64,000 bases of DNA, taken from Actinomycetota bacterium. Its GTDB lineage: Bacteria > Actinomycetota > Actinomycetes > Mycobacteriales > JACQDL01. The notes under the pieces were generated by a model. It saw only the letters and a program-made list of their open reading frames with translations, was not told the origin of the DNA and did no database searches. A program made the position numbers and the translations under genes. Positions 23,839-37,800 of the stretch are shown one piece after another; the stretch's first letter is position 1; the number at the start of each line of letters is the position of its first letter. The stretch covers positions 36,708 to 100,707 of the forward strand of contig JACQDL010000001.1 of the NCBI GenBank assembly GCA_016201065.1, given 5' to 3'.

Positions 23839-23844
23839 CCGACG
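23830..23844 (+). repeat. 15-bp direct repeat, left copy (GTGGGTTGACCGACG); includes the stop codon of mannosyltransferase copy 2
   Basis: Identical to 37105-37119; bases differ immediately on both sides. Confidence 0.85.
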
Positions 23845-23889
23845 ATGTCTTGGCCTGGCTGGACCGCATCGTGCGGCAGGACCCGAACA
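23835..23889 (+). pseudogene. 5' fragment of RelE/ParE-superfamily (HigB/Gp49-like) toxin interrupted by the IS605 element
   Basis: LTDDVLAWLDRIVRQDPN joins in frame with 36538+ (SHRRVVYAIEALAEAGPNLGRPLVD). Confidence 0.85.
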
Positions 23890-23924
23890 TTGACTTCTTC
23901 CCGGCCGTGAACGGCCGGGATTCC
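23890..23924 (-). mobile_element. IS605 right end: GR guide GAAT, hairpin CCCGGCCG-TTCA-CGGCCGGG, cleavage tetramer TCAA
   Basis: Minus strand GGAATCCCGGCCGTTCACGGCCGGGAAGAAGTCAA; same GAAT/TCAA pair as IS608. Confidence 0.9.
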
Positions 23925-23935
23925 TCCAGTGCCGC

Positions 23936-24652
23936 TCATGCGGCACCTCGGCGGGTTCCTGCTTCGCGGGCAACCGCCGGGACGGGTCCCGGTCTCACGT
24001 CGCCTCCGCAGGCGTTGCTGTCCGCCAGCCCGGCGGCCAGTCTGCGACCCTCGACCAGGATGTTCCTGGCCGCGTTCACGTCGCGGTCGTGCTCGGTGCC
24101 GCACACGCGACAGGTCCACGCCCTGACGTCGAGGGGTTTCGGCCCGTCCCGGCGCCCGCATGCCGAGCACTGTCGGCGACGACGGGAACCAGCGGCCGAC
24201 CTTGGCGCGGTTCGCCGGGCCTCTCTCCTTGCGTGCCAGCTGGCGTTGGAGCCGGGCGAGCTTGCGGGACTTGCGGCGCAGGTGGCTCGGGTTCGCCACG
24301 ATCTCCCCGCCGGAGGTGGAAACCAACCGGTCCAGACCGAGGTCGATCCCAACGTCGTTCAGGCTGGCAGGTAGTGGTCGGTCAGCGACCTCAACAACGA
24401 ACGAGGGCGAGCCAGTTCCGGTAGGCGCGTCGGGCGTCCTGGCATGCCTGCACCAGCGCGACCGAGGCGACCTCGCCCAGCCACACCCGTTCTCCGGTGA
24501 GCTTGGCGAGGGTCACGACGCGGCGTTGCACCTGCGTGTCGGAGATCTTCCCCCCCGGCCGCGTGGGCGTCCTGGCGGGTACGGAGCGCGTCGTTGAACA
24601 CCACTCGAGCACACCCGAACGTGCGGGCCAGCATCTCCCGCTGGTCGGGTAC
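23936..24652 (-). pseudogene. tnpB: TnpB (IS200/IS605 RNA-guided nuclease) remnant with internal deletions and frameshifts
   Basis: Fragments QREMLARTFGCARVVFND; KISDTQVQRRVVTLAK...ALVQACQDARRAYRNW; SFVVEV...VGIDLGL (RuvC-I); NRAKV|GRWFPSS; CSACG...WTCRVCGTEHDRDVNAARNI (Zn ribbon, RuvC-III). RuvC-II region is missing. Confidence 0.92.
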
Positions 24653-24830
24653 CCGCCGACCGTGCGCCTCTCCCGGCTGGTGAACTCCCCCAACGGCGTC
24701 TCCGCCAGCAGTTCCGGTTGCGCACCCACCGCGAGCACCTATGGTTGCCGTCGTACTTCGCTGTGTCTTGCGGCGGCACCCCCTGTCGATCATCGGGGAG
24801 AACGTGGAGCAGCAGCGACGGCCCGCCTGA
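24650..24830 (+). pseudogene. tnpA: C-terminal fragment of TnpA (Y1 HUH transposase)
   Basis: YPPTVRLSRLVNSPNGVS, then frameshift to HLWLPSYFAVSCGGTPLSIIGENVEQQRRPA*. The usual catalytic Tyr position reads AAC (Asn) at 24801-24803; the HUH half is deleted. Confidence 0.85.
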
Positions 24831-24840
24831 ACAGCACCGG

Positions 24841-24853
24841 CTACCCCGGCCCT
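24841..24853 (-). mobile_element. Inner half of the IS605 left-end hairpin (...CCCCGGCCCT)
   Basis: Completes the hairpin CCCGGCC-CTGAAC-GGCCGGG when joined to 36503+ through the shared CCCT. Confidence 0.75.
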
Positions 24854-24901
24854 AAACCGCAGCGTCCCTGGTCACCCACGCTGTTGTGGCGCTCGTTTCG
24901 C

Positions 24902-24948
24902 CCCGTAGCGGTGGGCGTGGACGGTCCCGCCACGCCCACCGCTACGGG
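24902..24948. terminator. 19-bp perfect inverted repeat, probable terminator downstream of the small HTH gene
   Basis: CCCGTAGCGGTGGGCGTGG (24902-24920), 9-nt loop, CCACGCCCACCGCTACGGG (24930-24948). Confidence 0.7.
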
Positions 24949-25022
24949 TTCACCCGCGACCCGAAGCCCTGCGGCGTCCGGGGCCCGGGGAGCCGCCGCC
25001 CACCCGGTGGGCTGGTCGGTCA

Positions 25023-25436
25023 CTACCGGTCCTGACCGGCGTCGCGACCAAGGCCAGGCCACGCCGCGACGTAGCTCGCATCCATCCCGGCCGGTGCCGA
25101 CCGAGATGGCTCACCGTCCGATGCGTCGCAGTGGGGGTGGGTGCACCACGCCACCCCCAGCAGTCCCGGTGGTATGCCCAACCCGTTGGCGATTCGTGCC
25201 AACACCGCCCGTGAGATCACCCGGCGACCGTTGACGATCGCGGACACCTCCGGTTGTTCGTGTCCGGTCAGCTCACCGATCGCACGCTGGCTGTATCCGT
25301 ACGCACCGAGCAGCCGATACACCGCCCCGACGTCCTGGGCGGTCAACGCCGACCGCATTACCGGCTCGCACCACACCCCGGGTGGTGGCTGGCCCGACGG
25401 CGCGAGTCGACGGGGTGCTCTGCCGGCGGGTGACAT
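25023..25436 (-). CDS. Stand-alone XRE-type HTH protein, paralogous to the N-terminus of the divergent regulator
   Basis: VWCEPVMRSALTAQDVGAVYRLL...SQRAIGELTG.EQPEVS.IVNGRRV...VLARIANGLGIP aligns by eye with residues ~14-90 of 25957-27321. Confidence 0.8.
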   Translation of the reverse strand: MSPAGRAPRRLAPSGQPPPGVWCEPVMRSALTAQDVGAVYRLLGAYGYSQRAIGELTGHEQPEVSAIVNGRRVISRAVLARIANGLGIPPGLLGVAWCTHPHCDASDGEPSRSAPAGMDASYVAAWPGLGRDAGQDR

Positions 25437-25444
25437 CCCTCGGA

Positions 25445-25672
25445 TCACGACACCACGCGCCCCTGGCCGTGCCCCGAGGCGGTGCGCAGCACCAACCGAA
25501 CTTCCCGCTGGGTCATCCGCAATCCACGGGCGATCCGCTCCGCTGGGCAGCCCTCCGCAGCCAGCCATGTGATCTGAGCGACGGCCTCCGGCGCGACGAC
25601 GATATTAGGAGATGTTCGAGATTTGGCCTGGCAGGGGTCGTGGGCCTGGGAACTTGCTGAACCGTGACGCAT
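25445..25672 (-). CDS. Small hypothetical protein (75 aa), possible HTH
   Basis: GGAGG SD before ATG 25672; AEGCPAERIARGLRMTQREVRLVL resembles a helix-turn-helix. Confidence 0.5.
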   Translation of the reverse strand: MRHGSASSQAHDPCQAKSRTSPNIVVAPEAVAQITWLAAEGCPAERIARGLRMTQREVRLVLRTASGHGQGRVVS

Positions 25673-25956
25673 ACCGTTTCCTCCCTGTGATCCGGTGGTC
25701 GGCGGCATCGCGGCGGACAGGGCGATACCCGAGGACCCGGCTCCGCCGCTCGGATCACCCGGTGGCGGGTGGAACTCCGGTGATCAGATTTCGCTGACAC
25801 ACCGCAGTGGGTAAGCCTCACTGCTAGTGCGCTTGAACGGTTGGTCGCGACGCCTAGTCGCGCTAGTCGCCTTGGCCTGTCGGGGATTCCGGACATGAGG
25901 GTGCGGCAGCTAGCCTGCTGGGACAGAATCGACCACCGGACGGCAGGCGGGATCAG

Positions 25957-27321
25957 ATGAACGTTGATCAGCACTCGACCGGCCAGGTCGCGCCGACGGT
26001 CTGGGAGCACCGTGAGATGCGGATGGCGTTGGCGTTCCGCGACCTGAAGGCCGTCTACGAACGCCTCCAGCGGGTGGGGGTGTCCCAGCGCCACATCGCT
26101 CGCCTGACCGGCCAGAGCCCGTCCGAGGTCTATGAGATCCTCAAGGGCCGCCGCGTCATGGCCCACGACGTGTTGGTGCGGGTCGCCGACGGATTGGGCA
26201 TCCCGCGCGGATACATGGGCCTCGCCTACGACGAATCAACGGAAATAGCCCTCGACCTGGCGACGGCGACGTGCTCTGGGAACGCCGACGAGCGGGACGA
26301 AGTCAGGCGGCTCCTCCGGCATGCCGCGAACGTCGCGATGGGTACTTCCGTTGAGGACGTCGCCCACTGGTGGCAACCCATCGACCGGCAGGTCGCGCCC
26401 GCGCCCACCGGCATCGGAATGCGCGACGTGGAGCACGTCGAGACGCTCACCGCCGCGATGCGTGCCCTGGACTACCGGTACGGCGGAGGAGCCTGCCGTG
26501 ACGCGGTAGCCGCCCACGTGCGGTGGACACAGCAACTCCTCACCGCATCCTGCGCCGACCGGACCCGTACCCGCCTGCATCGAGCGTTGGCAGACCTGCA
26601 CAATCTCGCGGGCTGGACCTCATTCGATGTCGGCATGTACTCCATTGCGCGAAAACATTTCGCACGCGCCCTCGAACAGGCCAAACACGCCGGAGATCTG
26701 TCGCTGGCCGCGAACGTGCTGTACCGCACGGGACGGCTCCACCTCCACCGTGGCATGCCCCGTGAGGCGCTGCGCTTCTTCCAGCTGGGGCAGATCACCG
26801 TCCAGGACAGTGGTTGCGGGCTGACGGTGGCGATGCTGTGCGCCAACGAAGGATGGGCCTACGCGTTGCTCGGCGACCGACCGCAGGTCCGGCGCTCGCT
26901 CGGGCGCGCCCGGGACGAGTTCACCCGCGCCGACCGCACCTCAGCTCCGGCCTGGGTGCGTTTCTTCGGCGATGCGGACCTGCACGCCTCCATTGGAGTG
27001 ACCTACTCCTCACAAACCAACGCGACCGCCAGTGAACTGACGCAGGCGATCGACCACATCAATCAGGCCATTGGGCTGCGGGGACCGGACATGACGCGCA
27101 GCCTGGTTTTCGAGCGGACCGCCCTCGCGGTGGCGCACCTGCGGGCCGGAAACCGGGACGTGGGGCTGGCGGTGGGACGCGAGGCGACCGCCTCCGGTGT
27201 TCGTTCGCTGCGCACCCTGGATCGGCTCGAACCGTTGCAGAGCATCGCCGCCACGCGCCACGGCGATACCGCCCTCGAGGATCTGGGGCACCAGATCGCG
27301 AGCTTGCGAGCGGCGTCGTGA
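25957..27321 (+). CDS. XRE-family transcriptional regulator with C-terminal TPR-like domain
   Basis: N-terminal HTH (VSQRHIARLTGQSPSEV), D..YGGG, LADLHNLAGW..FDVG, AWVRFF..ADL. Confidence 0.88.
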   Translation: MNVDQHSTGQVAPTVWEHREMRMALAFRDLKAVYERLQRVGVSQRHIARLTGQSPSEVYEILKGRRVMAHDVLVRVADGLGIPRGYMGLAYDESTEIALDLATATCSGNADERDEVRRLLRHAANVAMGTSVEDVAHWWQPIDRQVAPAPTGIGMRDVEHVETLTAAMRALDYRYGGGACRDAVAAHVRWTQQLLTASCADRTRTRLHRALADLHNLAGWTSFDVGMYSIARKHFARALEQAKHAGDLSLAANVLYRTGRLHLHRGMPREALRFFQLGQITVQDSGCGLTVAMLCANEGWAYALLGDRPQVRRSLGRARDEFTRADRTSAPAWVRFFGDADLHASIGVTYSSQTNATASELTQAIDHINQAIGLRGPDMTRSLVFERTALAVAHLRAGNRDVGLAVGREATASGVRSLRTLDRLEPLQSIAATRHGDTALEDLGHQIASLRAAS

Positions 27322-28238
27322 CCGGCGGCGCAGGCACCGCCGGTCACGCGACTTCCACCACGGTCCCCGACACGCTTCGGATCGCGCTCCACGACGTCTG
27401 CGCAACAGCGGGTCTCGACCCGACCGGAGCACAGTTGATCAAGTTCACCAACAACGCCGTGTTCGAACTGGCTGGAGCACCAGTGGTGATCCGTATCGCC
27501 GGGTCGCAGACGGCGCGCGACCGGGTCCCCACAGTGATCACAGTGGCACGCTGGCTCGCCGCGCACGACATGCCCAGCGTGCGGCTCGACCCTCGCGTGG
27601 ACCAACCGGTCCGGTCCGGAGGCCACCTGGCAACCCTGTGGCGACAGGTACCGAACATCGGCCCCGCCCCCACCGGCACCGACCTTGGGCGGATCCTTCG
27701 CCGCTACCACGCGCTGCCCCCGCCCGAGCAGCCGCTGCCCACCTGGCGTCCACTGCGGCCAATACGGCAGCGTCTCACCGAAACCGACATGCTCAGCGAC
27801 AGCGACCGCGAGTTCCTGGACGCGACGTGCGACGAGCTTGAAGACGCACTGAGCCGTCTGGATTGCCAACTCCCACCCGGACCGATCCACGGCGACCCTT
27901 TCCTCGGCAACCTGATACCCGGACCCGGCGGGCCGGTGATCTGCGATTTCGATTCTGCGGCCAACGGCCCACGGGAGTGGGATCTCACTCCCGTGGCCGT
28001 TGGTGGACTTCGGTTCCGCTACGTGGGCGAGGCGCCCACCCAACTCGCCCACGCCTACGGAACGGACCTGACCAGGTGGCCCGGCTTCACGGTGTTGCGA
28101 AAGCTTCGTGAATTGCAGCTCGTCACCAGTGTCGTGCCGGTCCTGCGACGCAACCCGGCGCTTACCGAACAGTGGCGCCATCGATTTACGACATTCCGCG
28201 ACCAGGATCACGCCGCGGTCTGGACCCCCTACCGGTAG
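27318..28238 (+). CDS. Aminoglycoside-phosphotransferase-like (APH/choline kinase fold) protein
   Basis: GTGA overlap; TNNAVF.L, IHGDPFLGN (Brenner motif), CDFD...GPREWDL. Confidence 0.88.
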   Translation: MTGGAGTAGHATSTTVPDTLRIALHDVCATAGLDPTGAQLIKFTNNAVFELAGAPVVIRIAGSQTARDRVPTVITVARWLAAHDMPSVRLDPRVDQPVRSGGHLATLWRQVPNIGPAPTGTDLGRILRRYHALPPPEQPLPTWRPLRPIRQRLTETDMLSDSDREFLDATCDELEDALSRLDCQLPPGPIHGDPFLGNLIPGPGGPVICDFDSAANGPREWDLTPVAVGGLRFRYVGEAPTQLAHAYGTDLTRWPGFTVLRKLRELQLVTSVVPVLRRNPALTEQWRHRFTTFRDQDHAAVWTPYR

Positions 28239-28320
28239 CCGGCGCTGACCCGCTGATCCAGACCATCGGCACCAACCCTCGGGCCGGCGCGGTCCGGGAA
28301 CCTCGAGATGGAGGACACCC

Positions 28321-28479
28321 ATGTCCAGCAGCACATTGCCGCAGCACCCGACCGTATGCACGGACGGGTTCGACCTGGACGTCACCGTGTTGGAGGTGGC
28401 TGATCCGGCCGGCCTGGTCAATGTGACCGACGACGGTTGCACCAGTACATGCGGAGCCTGTGTCACCAACATGGCCTGA
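28321..28479 (+). CDS. lanA: FxLD-family class I lanthipeptide precursor, 52 aa (not in the ORF track)
   Basis: GGAGG at 28310-28314; MSSSTLPQHPTVCTDGFDLDVTVLEVADPAGLVNVTDDGCTSTCGACVTNMA*; FDLD leader motif, Thr/Ser/Cys-rich core, directly upstream of lanB. Confidence 0.93.
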   Translation: MSSSTLPQHPTVCTDGFDLDVTVLEVADPAGLVNVTDDGCTSTCGACVTNMA

Positions 28480-28509
28480 TCGATCACCCGCCCACCGGTC
28501 GACGCGGTC

Positions 28510-31500
28510 GTGTCCGGTCTCCATCCGATACGTCTACCGGGCGTGAACCGGTCTGACCCGCCACGGGAGGTCGTCTTGCCGCCGTACGCTCGTCAGCCCG
28601 GGTACCGGGTCGCTGGTGCGGCACTCCTCCGCGCCACCGCCCACCCGATGCCGGAGGTCCCGCCGTGGCCGGACCTGGCCGACTCGACACCCGGGGCAGC
28701 CGCAGCCGGCGTGACCTGGCTTCGACAGGTCTGGGCGATCGACCACCTCGCCGACGCGATCGAGCACGCCAGCCCGGCGCTGGACCGGCAGGTACGGGCG
28801 CTGTGCGCCGCCGAGGTTCCCCCGGCTCGAAAGACCCGGCGTGCGGTGCTGTCGGTGGTGCGGTACCTGCACCGCATGACGGGGCGAGCCACGCCGTTCG
28901 GTTTGCTGGCGGGTGTCGCGTCGGCGAGTTTCGCGTCGCCCGCTCAGGTGCGGTGGGGTACCGACCACCGGCCTGTAGCCCGGGCCGCGGCGGAGTGGCT
29001 TGCCGGTGTGCTGGCGCGGTTGGAGGACTGCCCCGAACTTCTCGCCCGGCTGCCGGTGGTCGCCAACACCACACTGATGGTGCGTGGGGACCGGCTGGTC
29101 GTGCCGTATCAGCCGCAGGCCCGCGCCCGGGGGATCGGCGCGGTGGAGGTCTCGCTGCGGTACACCGCCGTCGTGCACGCCGTCATCGAAGCAGCCAGCA
29201 CACCGATCCAGATGGAGGATCTGGCCGCGACAATCCAGGCCGACCATCCGACGGCGCCCGGGGCGAAGATCACCGCGATGCTCACCGAACTGGTCCAGCG
29301 TGGTGCGCTGCTCACCAGCGTTCGCGCACCCAGCACCGAGCCGGACGCCTTGGGGCATCTTGTGGACCAGTTGGACGCGGTCGGCGCCCCCACCCTTGGC
29401 GCGGTCGGTGGGCTGGCCACGGCGGTGCGGGAGGTCCACTCAATGCTTGAGCGGCACAACCAGACGCCCGCCGCTGAGGGACGCCAGATCCGGGTAGCAG
29501 CCTCCACCCGGATGCGTGAGCTGGCGCCCACCACACGGCACCCCTTGGCGTTGGACCTTCGGCTCGACGGGACCTTCGTTCTTCCCGAGCAGGTCGCGCG
29601 GGAGGTCGAACACGCCGCGTGGGTGCTGACCCGGTTGAGCGCCTATCCGGTGGGGACGCCGACGTGGCGCGGCTACCACCAGCGGTTCTACGAACGGTTC
29701 GGTATCGGTTCGCTGGTTCCGCTGCGTGAGGTGATCGGCGACAGCGGCATCGGCTGGCCTGACGGCTACCCGGGTACGGTCGTACCAGAGCCCCGTTCGC
29801 CGATGTCGAGCCGGGACGAGACCCTGCTGGGGTTGGCCCAACGCGCCGCCCTCGACGGCCTCGACGAGGTTGTCGTGGATGAGCACCTGATCTCGGCGCT
29901 GCGGCTGGGGCCGACGCAGCACCGCCCACCGGCGCATCTGGAGATCGGTGTCCGGATACGTGCCACAAGCCACGCGGCCATGGCGTGCGGTGACTTCCTG
30001 ATCGAGGTGCTCAACGTCTCGCGTGCGGCTGGCGTGCTGACCGGACGGTTCCTCAGCGTCCTGGACCCCGAGGGCCGGACCGGCCTGGCGCGTACCCTCA
30101 CGGATCTGCCCGGTACCGACGGTGACACGGTGGCGGCACAGCTGTCGTTCCCGCCACTGGACCCCGCGACCGCGCACGTCACGCGGGCGATGCCGATCCT
30201 GCCCACCGTGGTCAGTCTTGCCGAGTACCGCACCGCTGACGAGCGGGTCTTGACCATCGACGATCTCGCGGTGGGCTGCGACGGCCACCGGATGTACCTG
30301 GCGGCGCCGGCCCGTGGACTGCGGGTGGAGGCCGCGGGTGCGCATGCGCTGAACCTCAAGACCCACACCCCGCCCCTCGCCCGGTTCCTGATCGAACTCA
30401 GCCGGGCGCAGTGCGCGCAGGTCACAGTGTTCTCCTGGGGCGCTGCCGGGTGCCTGCCGTTCCTGCCACGGTTGCGCTACGGCCGTACCGTCCTGTCCCC
30501 GGCGCGGTGGCGGCTGGAGGCATCCGACCTCCCGGCCCGCGGGGCGCCGTTGGTCGCCTGGGAGCGTGCCCTGACCGTGTGGCGGGCGCAGCGGCGGGTA
30601 CCGGGCCTGGTGTATCTGGCCGAAGGGGACCGGCTGCTGCCACTGGACCTGGACCGCTGCGGGCACCGTGTCCTGTTGCGCACCCACCTCGCCTCGACGC
30701 CGCACGCGGTGCTGATCGAAGCCCCCGGCGTTCACGACACCAACGACTGGTGCGGCGGGCGCGCCCACGAACTCATCGTTCCGGTCGTCGCCACCGAACC
30801 GGCATCGTGGCCGCCGCTGCCGACACCGACCGGCGCACGCGTCGTCGGCCGCGAGCACACCCACACGCCTGCCGTCTGCGGGGTCATGCTGGCCAGCCTG
30901 TACGGGGATGTCCACCGCCAGGACACCATCTTGTCCGGATACCTTCCCGCGCTGCTGGCCGAGTTCGACGAACCCGCCTGGTGGTACATCCGCTACCGCG
31001 ATCCCGACCACCACCTGCGGCTACGGTTCGCGTTGACCGACCCGGCGAGGTTCGGTGAGATGGCCCGCGCGGTCAGCACCTGGGCGGAGGAACTCAACCG
31101 GATCGGATTGGTGCGCGACCTGCGGTACCCGACATCCCATCCGGAGATCGGGCGCTGGGGATCGGGCCCGGCCTGGGCTGCCGCGGAGGAGGTGTTTCGC
31201 GCCGACTCCCGGGCCCTGCTGGTTCAGCTGGGCCAACTGTGCCACCCACACCGGCTGGCACTCACGGCCGCCCACACAGTCGCCATCACGATCGCGTTCA
31301 CCGGCAGCGCGACCGCCGGCATGCGGTGGCTGTTGGACCATGTGCCGGCCACCGCCCCGACGCCGGTGCCGCGGCCGGTCTTCGCCGAGGCTGTTCGCCT
31401 GGCTGATCCCCGCGGCGGTTGGGCGTGTCTGCGCGCCGCACCTGGTGGGGCGGCGATCCACGACGTGTGGCCGCCGCGCGAGACGGCTCTGGCCGCCTAC

Positions 31501-31683
31501 CGCCGCCACCTCGACGGCCCACACACCCAGGGCATCGCCGTCGATGACGTTCTCCGGTCCCTCCTGCACGCCAACTTCGTGCGCGCCAGCGGCATCGACT
31601 TCGACGGCGAAGCCACCGGGTTGTACCTGGCCCGTGCCGCGGCCCTCGCCTGGACGGCCCGCACGACAGGCCGTCAGCCATGA
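28510..31683 (+). CDS. lanB: Lanthipeptide dehydratase (glutamylation and elimination domains), 1057 aa
   Basis: YLHRMTGRATPFGLLAG, LPFLPRLRYG..VL.PARW, C-terminal WWYIRYRDPDHHLRLRF, YP...E..RWG. Confidence 0.94.
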   Translation: MSGLHPIRLPGVNRSDPPREVVLPPYARQPGYRVAGAALLRATAHPMPEVPPWPDLADSTPGAAAAGVTWLRQVWAIDHLADAIEHASPALDRQVRALCAAEVPPARKTRRAVLSVVRYLHRMTGRATPFGLLAGVASASFASPAQVRWGTDHRPVARAAAEWLAGVLARLEDCPELLARLPVVANTTLMVRGDRLVVPYQPQARARGIGAVEVSLRYTAVVHAVIEAASTPIQMEDLAATIQADHPTAPGAKITAMLTELVQRGALLTSVRAPSTEPDALGHLVDQLDAVGAPTLGAVGGLATAVREVHSMLERHNQTPAAEGRQIRVAASTRMRELAPTTRHPLALDLRLDGTFVLPEQVAREVEHAAWVLTRLSAYPVGTPTWRGYHQRFYERFGIGSLVPLREVIGDSGIGWPDGYPGTVVPEPRSPMSSRDETLLGLAQRAALDGLDEVVVDEHLISALRLGPTQHRPPAHLEIGVRIRATSHAAMACGDFLIEVLNVSRAAGVLTGRFLSVLDPEGRTGLARTLTDLPGTDGDTVAAQLSFPPLDPATAHVTRAMPILPTVVSLAEYRTADERVLTIDDLAVGCDGHRMYLAAPARGLRVEAAGAHALNLKTHTPPLARFLIELSRAQCAQVTVFSWGAAGCLPFLPRLRYGRTVLSPARWRLEASDLPARGAPLVAWERALTVWRAQRRVPGLVYLAEGDRLLPLDLDRCGHRVLLRTHLASTPHAVLIEAPGVHDTNDWCGGRAHELIVPVVATEPASWPPLPTPTGARVVGREHTHTPAVCGVMLASLYGDVHRQDTILSGYLPALLAEFDEPAWWYIRYRDPDHHLRLRFALTDPARFGEMARAVSTWAEELNRIGLVRDLRYPTSHPEIGRWGSGPAWAAAEEVFRADSRALLVQLGQLCHPHRLALTAAHTVAITIAFTGSATAGMRWLLDHVPATAPTPVPRPVFAEAVRLADPRGGWACLRAAPGGAAIHDVWPPRETALAAYRRHLDGPHTQGIAVDDVLRSLLHANFVRASGIDFDGEATGLYLARAAALAWTARTTGRQP

Positions 31684-32954
31684 CCAGCGAACACCTCGCC
31701 AGCGCCATGGCCGGCGCCGTCGCCGATCGACTGGCGCGCCCCGATACCGTGCCCACGCACCTGACCGAGGCGATCTGGTGGCGGCAATCCCTGGCGCATG
31801 GCGCGCCCGGAATCGCGCTGCTACACGTCGAGCGCGCCGCCGCCGGACTCGGACCATGGGAGCGGGCACACGACTGGCTCGCCTACACGGCGCGCGCCGC
31901 GCTCACCACCGGACCCGACAGTCACCTGTTCTACGGCGCCCCAGCCCTCGCCCACGTCCTCGCCTGCGCCGCCGCGCACCGGCCCGGCGCCTACACCCGG
32001 GCGCTGGCCCGCCTTGACCACGCCATTGCCGTCGACACCCACAACCGAGTCGGTGACGCCCACGCCCGCATGGACCGGGGCGAGCTGCCCGCCCTCGCCG
32101 ACTTCGACGTGATTCGAGGTCTCAGCGGTGTCGGCTCCCTGCTGCTGCGCCGCGACCCCCACGGCCTGGCGCTGCACGCCGTCCTCGACTACCTCGTCCG
32201 GCTCACCGAGCCCGTGAGGGGCGACGGGCAGGCCCTGCCCGGCTGGTGGACCACGTCGAGTCCCTCCGGGCGCGACAGCGGCCAGTTCCCCGGAGGCCAC
32301 GGCAACACTGGTGTGGCACACGGCATCGGTGGTGTGCTCGCCCTGCAGGCGCTCGCAACTCGACACGGCATCACCGTGGACGGCCAGCGGGAGGCCATGG
32401 GACGGATCTGCGCCTGGCTGGACCGGTGGCGCACCGACACCGGCGCGGGCCCAGTCTGGCCGTACTGGGTCAACCTCGCTCACCTGCGCGCCGGACACCA
32501 CGACACCACCGACCGGCAGCCACCGAGCTGGTGCTACGGCACCGCCGGCCTGGCCCGGGCCCAACAACTGGCCGCCATGGCCACCGGTGACACCCACCGC
32601 CAAGACTTCGCCGAACGCGCACTGGTCCAGGCCCTATCGGGTGTCGTTCAACGCTCCACCACGACGAATGCCTCCCTATGTCATGGCTACGCCGGGTTCG
32701 CCCACATCGCCAGTATCGTGGCGGCCGACGCCAGCACCGATGCCGCTGCGGCACTGCGGGCACTGACCCAAGACCTGCTGAACGCGCTCCAACCCGCCGA
32801 CGTCGATCCCGCCGAGACCGCCGCCCGCCTCGTTCGCGGCGACGACGGACCGGGATTCCTGGAAGGCGCCGCCGGGATCGCGCTGGCGGTCCTGGCTCCC
32901 AGCGCCGCGACCCGGCCCCAAACCGGCTGGGACACCTGCCTGCTCATCACCTGA
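31680..32954 (+). CDS. lanC: Lanthionine synthetase C (cyclase)
   Basis: FDVIRGLSG, GVAHGIGG, SWCYGTAG and LCHGYAG (Zn ligands Cys/Cys/His intact), FLEGAAG. Confidence 0.94.
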   Translation: MTSEHLASAMAGAVADRLARPDTVPTHLTEAIWWRQSLAHGAPGIALLHVERAAAGLGPWERAHDWLAYTARAALTTGPDSHLFYGAPALAHVLACAAAHRPGAYTRALARLDHAIAVDTHNRVGDAHARMDRGELPALADFDVIRGLSGVGSLLLRRDPHGLALHAVLDYLVRLTEPVRGDGQALPGWWTTSSPSGRDSGQFPGGHGNTGVAHGIGGVLALQALATRHGITVDGQREAMGRICAWLDRWRTDTGAGPVWPYWVNLAHLRAGHHDTTDRQPPSWCYGTAGLARAQQLAAMATGDTHRQDFAERALVQALSGVVQRSTTTNASLCHGYAGFAHIASIVAADASTDAAAALRALTQDLLNALQPADVDPAETAARLVRGDDGPGFLEGAAGIALAVLAPSAATRPQTGWDTCLLIT

Positions 32955-32985
32955 GCAACACCCCACCCCACCGTCTGCGAAGGAG

Positions 32986-35088
32986 ATGCCGCACCCGATG
33001 CCACCGACCCCCTGGCGCCAGTACAACGTCGAGTTTCCCGATCGGGCGACCGCGGCGTGGACCGCCGCGCACGACCTCCACCCGGCGTTGACCGCGGCAC
33101 AGGAGACCGGTGCGCTTCACGGGTGGTGGTTCGTGCGTAAACAACCCTGGAAGCTCCGATACCTACCCGACGACCCCGACTCCCGTGTGATCACCGAACT
33201 GTTGGACACGCTCACCACGCAGGGCCGGGTCGCCGGGTGGGCGGTGGGGACCTACGAACCCGAAACGCGGGCCTTCGGCGGTGACGCCGCGATGGACGTC
33301 GCCCACGCGCTGTTCCACCGCGACAGCCACCACATCCTGGCCCGCGCCGCGCAGGCCAACGGCGCGCTCCCGTGGCGGCGGGAGACCACGGTCCTGTTGT
33401 GCAGTGCCATGCTGCGCGCCGCGGGGTTGGACTGGTACGAGCAGGGCGACGTCTGGTCGAAAGTCGCCGCGTTGCGCCCCGACACACCCACGACCACCAC
33501 CACCGGACGAGCCACGGCACTGGTGGGGTCCATGCGGCAGCTCATGGCCACCGACACCCGCACCTTGTGCGCACCCGGTCGTGGTCCCCTCGCCGGCTGC
33601 GGCAGCTGGCTGGACGCCTTCGAGAGCACCGGGTACCAGCTGGCGGAGCTGGCACGGCACGGCGAGCTGACCCGGGGACTACGCGCCGTCCTCGCCCACC
33701 ACGTCATCTTCCACGCCAACCGCGCCGCGCTACCCGCAGCTGACCAGGCCACCCTGGCCGGGTTGGCGGTCGACGCCGTCTTCACCTCCACCGACGACCC
33801 CGTGTCGCCACTCACCGCGACACCACCACCCACTAAGGTGCCCGAAATGACCACTGTCCGTGACGACATCCCCGCCGCGTCCGCCGACCAACTGCGCCAC
33901 GATCTCACCACCCGGCTACATGGAATGAACGCCATTCGGACCCCCGCCATCGAAGCGGCCTTCCGGCGGACACCGCGACACCTGTTCCTTCCGGGTCTAC
34001 CGGTGGAGCAGGCATACGCCGACACCCCCATCTACACCAAGCAGGATGCCTGTGGCGCGTCGATCAGCGCGGCCTCCCAACCATGGATGGTCGCGGGCAT
34101 GCTCGAACAGCTCGACGCCCAACCCGGCGAGCGGATCATGGAAGTCGGTGCGGGCACGGGATACAACGCGGCGCTGCTCGCCGCGGTCGTCGGCGCGCCC
34201 GGTCACGTCACCACGATCGACGTCGACGACGACCTCGTCACCGCTGCCCGACAGCACTTGAGCGCCGCCGGCGTCGGCAACGTCGACGTCGTCCTCGGCG
34301 ATGGCGCGCTGGGGCATCCCGAAGGCGCCCCCTATGACCGGATCATCGCCACGGTGGGCGCCTACGAGACACCCACCGCGTGGCTGGAGCAGCTCGCACC
34401 CGGCGGGCGTCTGGTCGTTCCGGTCCGGCTGCGCGGCACCACCTCCCGCTCCATCGCCTTCGAGCGCGACACCCACGCCTGGGTCAGCCGGGGCTCCAAG
34501 CTGGCGGTCTTCATGCCGCTGCGCGGGATCGCCGACGACGCCCGGCGGATCGTCGCGCTCACCCCCGAGCAGGATGTGACACTGCAGGTCAACAAGGACC
34601 ATCTGGTTGACGACCCGGCCCTGGTGGGAGTGTTGGACACCACCCGGCATGAGGAATGGTCCGGTGTGCACCATCCACCCAACGTTCCGTTCGAGTGGAT
34701 GGAACTGTGGTTGTGCCTGCGCCTGGACAATCCCCTCATGCGCATGAACACCCAACCCTCGGCGGCCGACCGTGGCCAGGTCACCCCCATGTTCCCGTGG
34801 GGTTCCATGGCCACCACCCGAGACCATGACCTTGCCTACCTCACCATCCGACCAGCACCACCGGCCAGTGACGGCGGGAAGCTGTACGAGGTCGGCGTCA
34901 TCGGCCACGGACCCGACGGCAGCAGCCTCGCGCAGCGCGTCGCCGAGGAGATCCGGACCTGGGACGGCCAATTCCGTGGCCGTGGCGCCCGATTCGAAAT
35001 CCCCGACACGCCCACCACCAACGACCCGGCAGCCGGTCGATTCGTCCTGGACCGACCCCACCACCCCATCACCGTCATCTGGGAATGA
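32986..35088 (+). CDS. Fusion of a Lant_dehydr_C-like glutamyl-lyase domain and a PIMT-like O-methyltransferase (FxLD system)
   Basis: N-terminal WWFVRKQPWKLRY, YEPE...FGG..AMDVAHALFH.DS, HHVIFHANR. C-terminal AFRRTPRHLFLP, SAASQP, MEVGAGTGYNAA (SAM), YDRIIATVG, PGGRLVVP. Confidence 0.92.
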   Translation: MPHPMPPTPWRQYNVEFPDRATAAWTAAHDLHPALTAAQETGALHGWWFVRKQPWKLRYLPDDPDSRVITELLDTLTTQGRVAGWAVGTYEPETRAFGGDAAMDVAHALFHRDSHHILARAAQANGALPWRRETTVLLCSAMLRAAGLDWYEQGDVWSKVAALRPDTPTTTTTGRATALVGSMRQLMATDTRTLCAPGRGPLAGCGSWLDAFESTGYQLAELARHGELTRGLRAVLAHHVIFHANRAALPAADQATLAGLAVDAVFTSTDDPVSPLTATPPPTKVPEMTTVRDDIPAASADQLRHDLTTRLHGMNAIRTPAIEAAFRRTPRHLFLPGLPVEQAYADTPIYTKQDACGASISAASQPWMVAGMLEQLDAQPGERIMEVGAGTGYNAALLAAVVGAPGHVTTIDVDDDLVTAARQHLSAAGVGNVDVVLGDGALGHPEGAPYDRIIATVGAYETPTAWLEQLAPGGRLVVPVRLRGTTSRSIAFERDTHAWVSRGSKLAVFMPLRGIADDARRIVALTPEQDVTLQVNKDHLVDDPALVGVLDTTRHEEWSGVHHPPNVPFEWMELWLCLRLDNPLMRMNTQPSAADRGQVTPMFPWGSMATTRDHDLAYLTIRPAPPASDGGKLYEVGVIGHGPDGSSLAQRVAEEIRTWDGQFRGRGARFEIPDTPTTNDPAAGRFVLDRPHHPITVIWE

Positions 35089-35089
35089 C

Positions 35090-36217
35090 ATGCACCGCAC
35101 CGGGCCGATCGCCCGCCGCTTCCCCCTCGTGGCCCGCGCCCGCCCACCGTGCCCGCCGCTGGCAGACCGGGTCGACCGACTGCGCGCACTCGCCGACACA
35201 GCCGACCAGAACGACGACCTCGCCACCGCCTCCGCCGTCTTCAACCAGGCGGCGCTGCTCGCCTCGGACTGCGGTCTACCCGACCTGGCCAGGCAGTGGT
35301 GCCACCGGCACACCGGTGTCCACCTGCGGGCGCTGCCTGTGGACGCGCGGGCGGCCCGCCACGCCCTGGAACCCATCGTCAACCTCGCCCGCCTGCACAT
35401 CCGGGCAGGCCACGGCGACACCGCATTCCACCTCTTGGACTCCCTCTTCGAGGCGGTCGATGCCCGCACTGATGTCGTCATCGACGGTGTGTCGCTGCCC
35501 ATCACCCAGCTGACCCGGACAGCCACCGACCACCGAGAACTCCGCCAGTGGCTGTGGACCGTTCACCTCGCCGACGGCAGCCGCGCCCTCACCAGCATCG
35601 GCCGCTGGCAGGACGCCCACGAGCACCTGCACCGCCGACACGGCATCGGCACACGGATGCTCGACGGCCGCCAGGTTGCGGTCATCACCCACCTCACCGC
35701 GGACAACCACGCGCACGCCAAAGCACTGATCGACGGCACCGCAGCCGGCGAGCCCTGGGAGTCCGCCGTGACCAGATGCCTGGCCGCACTGTGCCACGCA
35801 GACGGTGACCACGCGACCCTCAACGACATCACCGCCATGCTGGAGGGCTACCGACCACTCCCCCCCACCCCCAGCCTGGCCGTGTTCCACGGCCGGTTGT
35901 GCCTGTCCGTCATCGACGCGGCCGGTGGCATCAGGCATCCCGGTGCACGCGACCTCGCCAACACGCTGATCCAGCAGACGCGGGCCTCCCGCGACGGGTA
36001 CCTCACACGCGACGTACTCGCCCACGACGGCTGCGTCACAATGCTCACCAACGACCAACGGCGCGACCTCGGTGAGATGCTCAAGGCCACCGCGCTGGGA
36101 CTCCGGGACATCCCCACGCAGCTGTACGCACGCCTCACGGCGGCATTGGACACCAGCGAAGCCGTGCTGGCGCGCACGTTGGCCGCGCGACCGCAGCGCA
36201 CCCGGTCTGTCAGGTAG
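35090..36217 (+). CDS. Conserved hypothetical protein coupled to the FxLD cluster (helical/TPR-like)
   Basis: ATG 1 nt after the methyltransferase stop; RFPLVARARPPC.PL..RV, AVFNQAALLASDCG.PDLA, LEP.VNLARL; 375 aa intact. Confidence 0.75.
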   Translation: MHRTGPIARRFPLVARARPPCPPLADRVDRLRALADTADQNDDLATASAVFNQAALLASDCGLPDLARQWCHRHTGVHLRALPVDARAARHALEPIVNLARLHIRAGHGDTAFHLLDSLFEAVDARTDVVIDGVSLPITQLTRTATDHRELRQWLWTVHLADGSRALTSIGRWQDAHEHLHRRHGIGTRMLDGRQVAVITHLTADNHAHAKALIDGTAAGEPWESAVTRCLAALCHADGDHATLNDITAMLEGYRPLPPTPSLAVFHGRLCLSVIDAAGGIRHPGARDLANTLIQQTRASRDGYLTRDVLAHDGCVTMLTNDQRRDLGEMLKATALGLRDIPTQLYARLTAALDTSEAVLARTLAARPQRTRSVR

Positions 36218-36273
36218 CGGCCGGCTGACGGTGGAGGGTCGTTCGCGTAGGTGGGCTCGGCCGCTGGGCTCAG

Positions 36274-36502
36274 CGGCAGCTGCCAGCGACCAGGAGCGGC
36301 CGTTGACGACGACATCCGCCCCACCAGCAGACCATCATCATCCGTCGGTTGCACGACGGCGACGAACAGGGACGGCAGCGCCGTGGCCTCCGGAACCCAC
36401 CGCAGGGCGAAGTGCCGGTAGGTCACCCGTGCCCAGGACAGGACCATGCTGTGGGGTCCCTCCCACTCCAGCCCCGCGCACGCCACCACGGGCCCGTCGA
36501 AA
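36274..36502 (-). pseudogene. NUDIX-type hydrolase internal fragment, cut at the cargo boundary
   Basis: FDGPVVACAGLEW...TYRHFALR...LLVGRMSSSTAAPGRWQLP stops just before where the Nudix box (GG..E) would be expected; no start. Confidence 0.65.
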
Positions 36503-36541
36503 CCCTGAACGGCCGGGCTTGCGCCAGCAAAGAAGGGGTCA
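36503..36541 (-). mobile_element. IS605 left end, outer half, plus target tetramer TGAC (36541-36538)
   Basis: Minus strand TGAC|CCCTTCTTTGCTGGCG-CAAG-CCCGGCCGTTCAGGG. CAAG predicts TGAC under the IS608 guide/target pairing rule. Confidence 0.85.
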
Positions 36542-36842
36542 CCGACGAGTCGTCTACGCCATCGAGGCCCTCGCCGAAGCAGGGCCCAACCTGGGCCGGC
36601 CGCTCGTAGACCGGGTCAAGGGCTCCACAGTGCACAGCTTCAAGGAACATCGACCTGGCTCGGCAGGCACCAGCGAGATCAGGGCCCTGTTCGTGTTCGA
36701 CCCCTGGCGTTCGGCGATCGTGCTGGTCGCCGGAGACAAGGCCGGCAACTGGAACGGCTGGTACCGCCAAGCCATCCCGCGCGCCGAGGAGCTGTAGGCG
36801 ATCTACCTGGAGGAACGAGCCCACGAGGAGAGTGCACCGTAG
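36538..36842 (+). pseudogene. 3' part of RelE/ParE-superfamily (HigB/Gp49-like) toxin, with a premature TAG at 36795
   Basis: HRRVVYAIEALAEAGPNLGRPLVDRVKGS...E.RPGSAGTSEIRALFVFDPWRSAIVLVAGDKAGNWNGWYRQAIPRAEEL*AIYLEERAHEESAP*. Confidence 0.88.
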
Positions 36843-37113
36843 GCGACACCCGCTGGTCGCAGATCCGCAACAAGCACATCGCCGCGGCCTGACTCAACGC
36901 GACATCGCGGCCGTCATGGGCGTCACCGTCGGCCGGGTCTCCCAGATCGAATCGGGCGACGTCTCCGGCATTGACGTCCTCGACCGCTACGTCACCGCCA
37001 TCGGCGGCCTGCTGGAGATCGTCGCCAACTTTGGCGACGAACAATTCAAGGGAGGACGTCGAGGGTGTCCAGGCCCCGTTGGGTGGCGGATCTGGTTCCT
37101 CACTGTGGGTTGA
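36839..37113 (+). pseudogene. HigA-like HTH antitoxin remnant (internal deletion, no clear start)
   Basis: DTRWSQIRNKHIAAA, then a frame change to RGLTQRDIAAVMGVTVGRVSQIESG...LDRYVTAIGGLLEIVANFGDE. Confidence 0.8.
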
Positions 37114-37119
37114 CCGACG
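37105..37119 (+). repeat. 15-bp direct repeat, right copy (GTGGGTTGACCGACG)
   Basis: Identical to 23830-23844. Confidence 0.85.
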
Positions 37120-37135
37120 GACGCGCACCCTCTAC

Positions 37136-37161
37136 CTTTGTTGAACGTTCGCTAAACAAAG
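37136..37161. promoter_or_regulatory. Imperfect palindrome, probable TetR autoregulatory operator
   Basis: CTTTGTT-GAACGTTCGCTA-AACAAAG, AT-rich, ends 7 bp before the TetR start. Confidence 0.6.
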
Positions 37162-37168
37162 GGGTACC

Positions 37169-37798
37169 GTGGGGCGCCGACCGACCTGGACCGAACCGGA
37201 TCTGCTCCGAGCGGTGATGGCGGTGTTTCGCCGCAGGGGCTTCGCCCGGACATCCATCCGCGACCTGGCGGAGGCGACGGGCCTGCATCCGGGCAGCCTG
37301 TACCAGGCGTACGGCAGCAAGGAAGGCTTGTTCGCGGCGGCGGTCACCACCTACAACGAGCTGGTGGTCGAGCACCGGGTGCGCACCCATCTCGACGAGG
37401 CCGAGCCGCCGCTGCGCGGAATCGACACGTTCTTCGCCTCGACCTTCGACGACGACGGCGACGACGACTCCGCTGCCGACGGACCCAACCCGGGGTGCCT
37501 GCTGACGAACACCGCTGTCGAGGCGCACCTGCTACCCGGCACCAGTCGCGACGGGGTCGCCGCGGGCCTGAACCTGATCGAGCAAGGGTTCCAGCGAGTG
37601 CTGGAGCGCGCCCGCCAGGCCGGGCAGATCAACCCCACCGCCGCGACCGACCAACTCGCCGCCCAGCTGCTTGCCCTCTACCAGGGCGTGCTGGTGTTGG
37701 TGCGGTTCGGCGCGCCCACGACGAAGCTCGCCGCCATCGTCGCCCACGCCGTTCCCGCGATCATCGCATCCGGCCACCACGCGGAAGGATCGACCTGA
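37169..37798 (+). CDS. TetR/AcrR-family regulator
   Basis: F.RRGFARTSIRDLAEATGLHPGSLYQAYGSKEGLF; GCLLTNTAVE. Confidence 0.92.
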   Translation: MGRRPTWTEPDLLRAVMAVFRRRGFARTSIRDLAEATGLHPGSLYQAYGSKEGLFAAAVTTYNELVVEHRVRTHLDEAEPPLRGIDTFFASTFDDDGDDDSAADGPNPGCLLTNTAVEAHLLPGTSRDGVAAGLNLIEQGFQRVLERARQAGQINPTAATDQLAAQLLALYQGVLVLVRFGAPTTKLAAIVAHAVPAIIASGHHAEGST

Positions 37799-37800
37799 CC

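What the first reader, a model, noticed from the sequence alone, without database searches (positions are those of the whole stretch)
24841..36517. An 11.6-kb lanthipeptide cargo inserted inside the IS left-end hairpin
Seen: left junction CCCCGG-CCCT|AAACCGC (24850-24853) and right junction GTCGAAA|CCCT-GAACGGCCGGG (36503-36506). Removing the cargo restores CCCGGCC-CTGAAC-GGCCGGG, nearly identical to the right-end hairpin, with CCCT duplicated. The cargo has no terminal inverted repeats, no integrase or transposase, and its right end cuts a NUDIX gene mid-frame. Inference: capture at a break in the hairpin (for example hairpin cleavage plus end-joining) or integration by a trans-acting recombinase with a CCCT core; the insertion would also immobilise the IS. 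IS200/605 subterminal hairpins acting as landing pads for whole gene clusters would be a little-described route of BGC or defence-gene acquisition.
Basis: partly seen in the sequence, partly recalled or inferred. Interest (0 to 1): 0.85.

Follow-up and report, generated by a model that had tools for sequence, protein, structure and literature searches.

The report
Anti-phage lanthipeptide cluster splitting an IS605 hairpin
An 11.6-kb gene cluster for an anti-phage-type lanthipeptide really does sit in the loop of a dead insertion sequence's end hairpin, but it looks like a single accidental recombination, not a new general route of gene capture.

Summary
Removing 24854-36506 rebuilds CCCGGCC-CTGAAC-GGCCGGG. 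The exact 24-mer across that rebuilt joint occurs in 20 metagenome contigs, several directly after a tnpA stop, so it is the canonical left end (LE) of an IS605-type element. Removing the whole composite (23890-36537) restores a Gp49/RelE-family toxin ORF in frame, so both half-hairpins belong to one IS copy. Single contigs from four separate groundwater metagenome runs span both junctions with no differences.

The cargo (24854-36502) is a complete lanthiphage/coi-type class I lanthipeptide cluster (precursor, LanB, LanC, a fused PF14028+PF01135 enzyme, a CoiH-like protein) plus HTH, HTH-TPR and kinase genes. It has no recombinase, no terminal inverted repeats and no terminal hairpin pair. Its right end cuts a NUDIX ORF.

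The mechanism is inferred. I favour recombinase-independent illegitimate recombination at a break- or stall-prone palindrome. CCCT flanks the cargo, and the similarity extends imperfectly to 9/11 bases. Ku was not detected in this genome.

Generality is not supported. All five LE copies found by a right-half scan of viral contigs are intact, and none of 21 related clusters has IS605 genes within 10 kb. This is a neat three-layer nested fossil of moderate interest.

The parts
23830..23844 (+). Left copy of the exact 15-bp direct repeat GTGGGTTGACCGACG. It forms the outer layer around the toxin-antitoxin remnant and overlaps the stop codon of the upstream glycosyltransferase gene.
Evidence: 2 matches in the window, 0 expected.
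23839..23889 (+). 5' fragment of a Gp49/RelE-family toxin pseudogene (codons ...LTDDVLAWLDRIVRQDPN).
   Evidence: it joins in frame to 36538-36797 and aligns gap-free to intact toxins.
23890..23950 (-). IS right end. Hairpin at 23900-23919, followed on the top (minus) strand by GAAGAAGTCAA. This is the conserved 3' tail after tnpB, where the omega-RNA scaffold is expected.
   Evidence: same motif after the intact tnpB in L002; -12.4 kcal/mol, z -5.2.
23936..24720 (-). tnpB pseudogene. HTH_OrfB_IS605 and Cas12f1-like TNB domain pieces remain. It has internal deletions relative to the C6 copy.
24680..24830 (+). C-terminal ~50 codons of tnpA (Y1 HUH transposase), frameshifted, with the stop at 24828-24830. 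It is oriented divergently to tnpB, as in the IS605 layout.
   Evidence: Y1_Tnp profile positions 78-121 of 121, E 1e-4; layout as in the intact element at C51.
24831..24853 (-). Proximal half of the IS left end: left arm CCCGGCC (24845-24851) plus the first two loop bases, CT.
24854..36502 (+). The cargo, 11,649 bp. GC is 67-73%, against 72-76% in the core flanks.
24866..24990 (-). A ~90-nt repeat with a perfect 19-bp stem (24902-24920 / 24930-24948). Strong copies occur only in this genome (C44, C52, C26, and a partial one in C29).
25023..25568 (-). XRE-type HTH protein. It belongs to a family with 15 or more paralogues in this genome.
25957..27321 (+). HTH-TPR regulator.
   Evidence: A homologue sits next to the related cluster in G105:C20.
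27318..28238 (+). APH-family phosphotransferase or kinase.
28321..28479 (+). 52-aa precursor peptide with an FDLD leader motif and the core ...TDDGCTSTCGACVTNMA.
   Evidence: Motif compared with TXDXCXXXCXXXC from bioRxiv 10.1101/2024.06.26.600839.
28510..31683 (+). LanB-type dehydratase (LphB/CoiB-like).
   Evidence: PF04738 at E 3.6e-209, plus PF14028.
31680..32954 (+). LanC-type cyclase (LphC/CoiC-like).
32986..35088 (+). Fused glutamyl-lyase-like (PF14028) and protein isoaspartyl O-methyltransferase (PF01135) enzyme (LphDE/CoiS_A-like).
35090..36217 (+). Conserved fourth gene of the cluster (LphF/CoiH-like). It has no Pfam domain.
36218..36502 (-). NUDIX hydrolase fragment. It lacks about 47 N-terminal codons, cut at the cargo boundary, and is decayed towards its 3' side.
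36503..36537 (-). Distal half of the IS left end: duplicated CCCT, loop remainder GAAC, right arm GGCCGGG (36511-36517) and the tail CTTGCGCCAGCAAAGAAGGG up to the IS tip.
36538..36797 (+). 3' part of the toxin pseudogene. It starts with GTCA, which is the IS target TGAC on the top strand. The TAG at 36795-36797 stands where homologues have Tyr.
36832..37113 (+). HTH antitoxin-like ORF. Its integrity was not examined.
37105..37119 (+). Right copy of the 15-bp direct repeat.

Best explanation
Shown:
1. An IS605-type IS200/IS605 element (divergent tnpA and tnpB, subterminal hairpins) inserted 3' of TGAC into a Gp49/RelE-family toxin gene.
2. Later, an 11,649-bp DNA segment landed between the 2nd and 3rd loop bases of its left-end hairpin, leaving CCCT on both sides.
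3. The segment is a complete lanthiphage/coi-type class I lanthipeptide cluster with its regulators. It carries no recombinase or transposase, no terminal inverted repeats and no pair of terminal hairpins, and one end lies inside a NUDIX ORF.

Inferred: the segment was joined by recombinase-independent (illegitimate) recombination. Two forms seem most likely. One is a single crossover between circularised or looped-out donor DNA and the LE at a short patch of imperfect identity (CCCT-RAAC-SGC, 9 of 11). The other is a replication template switch at the same place. In either case the GC-rich palindrome would have made the site prone to breakage or fork stalling.

This was a one-off accident. 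It was probably kept because the cluster is useful: all its ORFs are open, while the IS and the toxin are decayed. It is not the product of a dedicated capture system.
For: - Nesting and order of events.
- No mobility genes or end structures in the cargo.
- The cargo end falls at an arbitrary point inside a NUDIX ORF.
- A 4-bp repeat is unlikely by chance (p about 0.008), and the next 7 bases match 5/7 (p about 0.03).
- The cargo ends occur nowhere else in the genome, so they are not the ends of a repeated mobile element.
- Ku is not detected, which argues against classical NHEJ.
- An independent outer layer with a 15-bp direct repeat and no recombinase shows that short-repeat-flanked insertions recur at this locus.
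- The locus is an insertion hot spot. In same-family genomes only ~0.7 kb separates the flanking genes, against 14.3 kb here.
- The cluster is patchy (21 of 401 genomes of the order, absent from both same-family genomes), as expected for accessory DNA.
Against: - Only 4 bp are perfectly repeated, and the 9/11 extension was noticed post hoc.
- No donor site, circle junction or empty-site variant was found, so a crossover, a template switch and a staggered break with fill-in cannot be told apart.
- The position in the hairpin loop could be coincidence.
- The event may have happened in another host or on a plasmid, in which case the missing Ku says nothing.
- In a NUDIX homologue the codons just outside the cut read CCCGGCCCT, identical to the LE arm. 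The orientation does not fit a simple microhomology join, and this remains unexplained.
Confidence: 0.5

Rival explanations
1. The extruded or single-stranded hairpin was cut (for example by an SbcCD-like nuclease or a type II topoisomerase, giving a 4-nt stagger). The ends were filled in and a linear foreign fragment was ligated in, producing a true 4-bp target duplication.
For: The break lies in the loop of a stable 7-bp GC stem. There is an exact 4-bp duplication. The cargo ends look arbitrary, with the NUDIX ORF cut mid-gene.
Against: No Ku homologue is found in the 97.8%-complete genome. Blunt capture would not predict the extra 5/7 similarity next to CCCT. Nothing identifies the nuclease.
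Confidence: 0.2
2. Site-specific integration by a tyrosine or other recombinase. It was either supplied in trans or was once encoded in the cargo and later deleted. It used the 7-6-7 palindrome as a pseudo-attB with a CCCT(R)AAC overlap.
For: The LE has the geometry of a core-type site, two 7-bp inverted arms with a 6-bp spacer. The flanking repeat is 7/8 identical over CCCTRAAC.
Against: There is no recombinase gene and no room for one in the cargo. The inferred attP (GTCGAAA-CCCT-AAACCGC) has no inverted arms. The cargo ends are not repeated in this genome. One end lies inside an ORF. No related cluster shows such ends.
Confidence: 0.13
3. The cargo is a non-autonomous single-strand (HUH) transposon of the IS200/IS605 or IS91 kind. 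It was mobilised in trans and inserted 3' of CCCT into single-stranded loop DNA, and its own right tip also reads CCCT.
For: IS200/IS605 elements have no TIRs and no TSD, and they insert 3' of a tetranucleotide into single-stranded DNA (PMC3201880). A perfect 19-bp hairpin lies 48 nt from the cargo's left end. An intact IS605-type element exists in the genome.
Against: There is no hairpin near the right end. The left hairpin belongs to an unrelated genome-specific repeat family. The cargo is about ten times larger than known members. The right tip lies inside a NUDIX ORF.
Confidence: 0.05
4. The cargo travelled inside the IS as a passenger, so the 12.6-kb composite transposed into the toxin gene as one unit.
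For: Both IS tips flank the composite, and the toxin gene is restored by removing all of it.
Against: The cargo splits the LE hairpin that TnpA must bind, and the split sequences no longer fold. All other LE copies seen are uninterrupted.
Confidence: 0.04
5. Artefact: a chimeric MAG assembly or a chance resemblance.
For: The genome is a metagenome-assembled draft in 65 contigs.
Against: Four per-run assemblies carry both junctions on single contigs with 0 differences. The rebuilt LE matches 20 natural copies exactly. The toxin ORF is restored in frame.
Confidence: 0.02

Closest known systems
IS200/IS605 family insertion sequences with the IS605/IS608 layout (the host element)
   Same: It has a Y1 HUH tnpA remnant and a tnpB remnant in divergent orientation. 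It has similar subterminal hairpins at both ends and no terminal inverted repeats. It inserted 3' of a tetranucleotide (TGAC) without a duplication. The right tip ends in ...GTCAA after a GGAAT foot, as I recall for IS608 (PMC3201880, PMC8612924).
   Different: It is a fossil. tnpA is reduced to ~50 codons and tnpB carries deletions. Uniquely among the copies seen, its LE hairpin loop is interrupted by 11.6 kb.
Lanthiphage / coi-type (lanthivirin) class I lanthipeptide clusters of Actinobacteria (the cargo)
   Same: The gene set and order match: precursor, LanB, LanC, fused PF14028+PF01135 enzyme, then a conserved protein with no known domain (LphF/CoiH). There is no exporter or protease, and the core peptide carries a T-x-D-x-C-x-x-x-C motif. 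The family is reported to be enriched in defence islands, prophages and plasmids.
   Different: It is only 50-61% identical to the nearest Streptomyces and Kitasatospora clusters. The last Cys spacing is one residue shorter than the published consensus. Anti-phage activity was not tested here.
Palindromic repeats as insertion hot spots (REP/BIME targeted by IS elements; integron attC hairpins)
   Same: A structured palindrome is the point of entry for foreign DNA (PMC1525189; PMC4792948).
   Different: In those systems a dedicated transposase or integrase recognises the palindrome and the events recur. Here no enzyme is encoded and only one event is known.
Short-homology / microhomology-mediated illegitimate recombination and template switching (for example the MMBIR model)
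   Same: The junctions carry a few bases of identity, the end points in the donor are arbitrary, and no specialised enzyme is needed (PMC2621351 for the model).
   Different: The model was developed mainly for duplications and deletions. A clean 11.6-kb insertion with the same 4 bases at both junctions is an unusual outcome, and it is not demonstrated here.

Membership tests
IS200/IS605 family (host element) | Y1 HUH transposase TnpA | tested here: met
   The C-terminal fragment matches Y1_Tnp profile positions 78-121 of 121 (E 1e-4, 22.7 bits against a cut-off of 23). It is 67% identical to the end of an intact 135-aa TnpA. It is only a remnant.
IS200/IS605 family (host element) | Accessory TnpB (OrfB) | tested here: met
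   HTH_OrfB_IS605 and Cas12f1-like TNB pieces are present on the minus strand. It is a pseudogene.
IS200/IS605 family (host element) | Similar subterminal hairpins at both ends on the same strand, with no TIRs | tested here: met
   RE and rebuilt LE hairpins are 19/20 identical and both fold. The LE is identical to 20 natural copies.
IS200/IS605 family (host element) | Insertion 3' of a fixed tetranucleotide without a target duplication | tested here: met
   The toxin ORF is restored exactly with no duplicated bases. TGAC flanks the LE here and in the metagenome copies.
Lanthiphage / coi-type lanthipeptide cluster (cargo) | [quoted passage not shown] | tested here: met
   PF04738+PF14028 and PF05147.
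Lanthiphage / coi-type lanthipeptide cluster (cargo) | [quoted passage not shown] | tested here: met
   The protein at 32986-35088 carries both domains. Definition.
Lanthiphage / coi-type lanthipeptide cluster (cargo) | Conserved hypothetical LphF/CoiH gene after LphDE | tested here: met
   The protein at 35090-36217 has 44-53% identical homologues in the same position in the 20 related loci that extend past LanB. A direct comparison with S. coelicolor CoiH was not made.
Lanthiphage / coi-type lanthipeptide cluster (cargo) | Core peptide motif TXDXCXXXCXXXC | tested here: inconclusive
   The core reads TDDGCTSTCGAC, which is T-x-D-x-C-x-x-x-C-x-x-C. The last spacing is one residue shorter.
Lanthiphage / coi-type lanthipeptide cluster (cargo) | Anti-phage activity | not testable with these tools
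   This needs expression and phage challenge.
Integrase-borne genomic island | Recombinase gene inside or next to the island | tested here: not met
   All cargo ORFs are assigned, none is a recombinase, and there is no free space larger than 390 bp.
DDE transposon | Terminal inverted repeats plus a transposase | tested here: not met
   The ends AAACCGCAGCG and ...CCCGTCGAAA are not inverted repeats, and there is no transposase.
Non-autonomous IS200/IS605-like element (cargo as transposon) | Matching subterminal hairpins at both ends | tested here: not met
   There is a hairpin only near the left end and none within 200 nt of the right end.
Recurrent 'hairpin landing pad' system | Several independent insertions at the same hairpin position | tested here: not met
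   All 5 LE copies found through their right half in viral contigs are intact. Only one LE exists in the own genome. None of 21 related clusters has tnpA or tnpB within 10 kb. The sampling is small.

The most novel reading that the evidence does not exclude
Extruded or single-stranded subterminal hairpins of IS200/IS605 elements are recurrent entry points. Recombinase-less defence or biosynthetic cassettes would integrate there through a few bases of identity in the loop. This would give dead IS copies a second life as capture sites and explain how some integrase-free defence islands are built.
Probability: 0.06. Interest if true: 0.8.

Novelty: new variant of a known kind. Interest (0 to 1): 0.42.

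Why it matters
How integrase-free defence islands and biosynthetic clusters enter genomes is rarely visible at base-pair resolution. Here three nested events can be read exactly:
- a toxin-antitoxin module flanked by a 15-bp repeat;
- an IS605-type element inside the toxin gene;
- an anti-phage-type lanthipeptide cluster inside the IS hairpin loop.

The last event shows a whole functional cluster acquired without any dedicated mobility gene, at a palindrome, with only 4 to 11 bases of similarity. If more such cases were found, IS hairpins would count as fragile capture sites. As a single case it is a clean worked example of illegitimate recombination building a defence locus, and a new, divergent member of the lanthiphage family from an uncultured groundwater actinobacterium.

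Tried and rejected
- Donor site or second copy of the cargo ends in the own genome: none found.
- Known RNA families in 23000-38500: only sub-threshold noise.
- A right-end hairpin or TIRs that would make the cargo a transposon: none.
- Pfam on the presumed NUDIX fragment: no hit at E<=1. The homologue search and alignment then settled it.
- A microhomology explanation through the NUDIX homologue's CCCGGCCCT codons next to the cut. The 9-nt identity with the LE arm is in the wrong orientation for a simple crossover or priming event, and inversion scenarios do not reproduce the observed junctions. I left it as unexplained.
- Classical NHEJ: Ku was not detected.
- Other split LE copies: none in viral contigs. 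The 20 metagenome hits were intact by construction.
- Linkage of related clusters to IS605 genes: none of 21.
- An empty-site variant in the four metagenome runs: no contig with a loose end at either junction. Contigs hide rare variants, so this is weak.
- Close synteny partners: there are no same-genus genomes, only two same-family ones.
Full report
**What is at the coordinates.** The left one is ...GGCTACCCCGGCCCT|AAACCGCAG, with CCCT at 24850-24853. The right one is ...GGGCCCGTCGAAA|CCCT|GAACGGCCGGGCTTGC, with CCCT at 36503-36506. Taking out 24854-36506 gives CCCGGCC-CTGAAC-GGCCGGG. That differs at one loop base from the hairpin at 23900-23919, CCCGGCC-GTGAAC-GGCCGGG. As single-stranded DNA the rebuilt hairpin folds at -11 kcal/mol (z -3.1) and the 23900 hairpin at -12.4 kcal/mol (z -5.2). 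The two present-day junction sequences fold no better than shuffles.

**The host element.** The top strand of the element is the window's minus strand.
- Its right end carries the hairpin followed by GAAGAAGTCAA. The same tail follows an intact 381-aa tnpB in a related genome.
- The tnpB here is a pseudogene that keeps HTH_OrfB_IS605 and Cas12f1-like TNB pieces. It has deletions relative to a second fragment of the same IS on contig C6.
- On the plus strand, about 50 frameshifted codons of the C-terminus of a Y1 transposase end at 24828-24830. That is 13 bases before the half hairpin.
- The layout of divergent tnpA and tnpB, with the LE after tnpA and the RE after tnpB, matches an intact, more distant IS605-type element on contig C51 of the same genome.

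**One IS copy, not two.** Removing 23890-36537 joins ...LTDDVLAWLDRIVRQDPN to SHRRVVYAIEALAEAGPNLGRP... in frame. The rejoined protein matches Pfam Gp49 from profile position 3. It aligns without a gap across the joint to 123-126-aa RelE/ParE-family toxins at 71-79% identity. This fixes the IS tips at 23890 and 36537 and the target at TGAC on the top strand.

**The rebuilt left end exists in nature.**
- Intact relatives found through the tnpA fragment show the same sequence running across the break point. One reads ...ctcaCCCCGGCCCGGAGGCCGGAGCTTGCACC.... Another reads ...ctaaCCCCGCCCTGAACGACGAGGCTTGCGCG....
- The exact 24-mer CCGGCCCT|GAACGGCCGGGCTTGC is not contiguous in the window, but it occurs in 20 metagenome contigs. 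The contexts read gggcta(a/t)cCCGGCCCTGAACGGCCGGGCTTGCgcc...ggtca. At least six of them lie right after a tnpA C-terminus.
- The right-half 16-mer occurs in only 1 of 401 genomes of the order, the window's own.
- Each half occurs once in the own genome.

**Assembly.** The genome is a groundwater MAG. In four runs from four samples of one study, independently built Logan contigs carry the region. A 17.6-kb contig in X1 and a 26-kb contig in X2 run from 24519 past 37600 with 0 differences, so they cover both junctions. No loose ends fall at 24853 or 36503-36507, and no alternative joints appear. Contigs cannot show rare variants.

**The cargo (24854-36502, 11,649 bp).** Its contents, in order:
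- a ~90-nt repeat with a perfect 19-bp stem;
- an XRE HTH gene on the minus strand;
- an HTH-TPR regulator;
- an APH-family kinase;
- a 52-aa precursor (core ...TDDGCTSTCGACVTNMA);
- LanB and LanC;
- a fused PF14028+PF01135 enzyme;
- a conserved 375-aa protein with no Pfam domain.

The last four genes occur in the same order in 17 Kitasatospora, Streptomyces and MAG loci at 44-61% identity and in three genomes of the window's order. The fourth gene is present in 21 of 401 genomes of the order and in neither same-family genome.

This architecture is the one described for 'lanthiphages' (LphB, LphC, LphDE, LphF). That family is reported to defend Streptomyces against phages and to be enriched in defence islands, prophages and plasmids (bioRxiv 10.1101/2024.06.26.600839). 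It also matches the coi cluster, whose CoiH forms a methyllanthionine sulfoxide (bioRxiv 10.64898/2026.08.26.747419).

There is no recombinase or transposase and no room for one. There are no terminal inverted repeats and no hairpin near the right end.

The last 285 bp are a NUDIX fragment on the minus strand. Pfam missed it. Homologues at up to 76% identity align from exactly the cargo's last codons (FDGPVVAC...), and their first ~47 residues have no counterpart. So the boundary does cut an ORF.

**Locus history.**
- In both same-family genomes the glycosyltransferase gene (window 22318-23838) is followed after ~0.7 kb by thiE (window 38120-38827, minus strand). That gap holds two small lycopene-cyclase-domain genes, which this genome lacks. 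Here the gap is 14.3 kb.
- The order of layers is therefore: TetR/SnoaL replacement, toxin-antitoxin module, IS605 in the toxin gene, cluster in the IS hairpin.
- GC is 67-73% across the island against 72-76% outside.
- The cargo's left-end repeat has strong copies only in this genome among 61 relatives, and its HTH gene has many paralogues here. So the cargo either came from the same lineage or has resided here long enough to be colonised by the repeat.

**How it got there (inference).**
- The 4-bp repeat is unlikely to be chance (p about 0.008).
- The similarity continues imperfectly: CCCT-AAACCGC at the left junction against CCCT-GAACGGC at the right. That is 9/11, and the extra 5/7 has p about 0.03, noticed post hoc.
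- The arbitrary end points, the lack of any mobility gene and the uniqueness of the ends in the genome point to recombinase-independent illegitimate recombination.
- A single crossover of a circular or looped donor at this short patch, or a template switch at a stalled fork, fits slightly better than blunt capture at a staggered break. Classical NHEJ is disfavoured because Ku is not detected. That argument fails if the event took place in another host.
- The break lies two bases into the loop of a stable GC hairpin. This is where breakage or stalling is expected, but with one case this cannot be separated from coincidence.
- One oddity remains. In the Streptomyces chryseus NUDIX homologue the codons just outside the cut read AACCCGGCCCTC. 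They contain the LE arm sequence CCCGGCCCT, but in the orientation opposite to what a simple microhomology join would need.

**Generality.**
- Scanning viral contigs for the LE right half gave five true LE copies, all intact.
- The own genome has no other LE.
- None of 21 related lanthipeptide loci has tnpA or tnpB within 10 kb.
- The idea of IS hairpins as landing pads is therefore unsupported on present, limited sampling.

**Verdict.** The mechanism is unproven and is most likely an accident of illegitimate recombination. The cargo belongs to a recently described anti-phage lanthipeptide family. The case is a new variant of known phenomena (palindromes as insertion hot spots, integrase-free island growth) and not a new kind of system. 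I score interest at about 0.4.

Noticed in passing
window 23830-23844 and 37105-37119: An exact 15-bp direct repeat, GTGGGTTGACCGACG, brackets the toxin-antitoxin remnant with the IS and the cluster inside. The left copy overlaps the stop codon of the upstream gene, and its last 10 bases encode the toxin's conserved L-T-D. How it arose is unclear.
   Followed up: partly
window 24866-24990; G000 C44:14045-14137, C52:77194-77275, C26:3924-4005, C29:14028-14083: A ~90-nt repeat family with a 16-19-bp stem and a conserved 5' part (GGGCTTCGGGTYGCGGGTGAACCCG). Strong copies occur only in this genome among 61 relatives. It has no Rfam match and often lies near HTH/TPR regulator genes. It could be a small RNA or a REP-like element.
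   Followed up: partly
window 23839-38119 versus G002:C89:31626-32303 and G001:C537:6682-7368: Same-family genomes have two small lycopene-cyclase-domain genes between the glycosyltransferase gene and thiE. This genome lacks them entirely and has a 14.3-kb island there instead, including TetR (37169-37798) and a SnoaL-like gene.
   Followed up: partly
G000 C51:92700-94470 (outside the window): An apparently intact IS605-type element of a different subgroup, with a 154-aa open tnpA frame that carries a full Y1_Tnp match. Its tnpB reading frame is open, and its LE hairpin reads CCCGCCCTGAAGGGCGG. It is a possible source of TnpA in trans.
   Followed up: no
G000 C6:168660-169560 (outside the window): A second fragment of the same IS (80-96% identical). 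It lacks both ends, but it retains tnpB segments that are deleted in the window copy.
   Followed up: no
L106:9965-10030 (Streptomyces chryseus NUDIX gene) versus window 24845-24853: The homologue's codons N-P-A-L just 5' of the point where the cargo cuts the NUDIX ORF read AACCCGGCCCTC. They contain the 9-mer CCCGGCCCT, which abuts the other end of the cargo in the window. The orientation does not fit a simple join.
   Followed up: partly
window 36795-36797: The toxin pseudogene also carries a TAG where homologues have Tyr, and the following codons (AIYLEERAHEE) are still recognisable. It therefore carries three independent lesions: 5' truncation, IS insertion and a nonsense codon.
   Followed up: yes
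L119:960-1060 (IMG/VR contig): Here an RE-type hairpin (ttgacttcctcCCGGCCGTGAACGGCCGGG) is followed directly by the LE-type tail CTTGCgcc...ggtca. It may be a minimal or recombinant derivative of this IS group.
   Followed up: no
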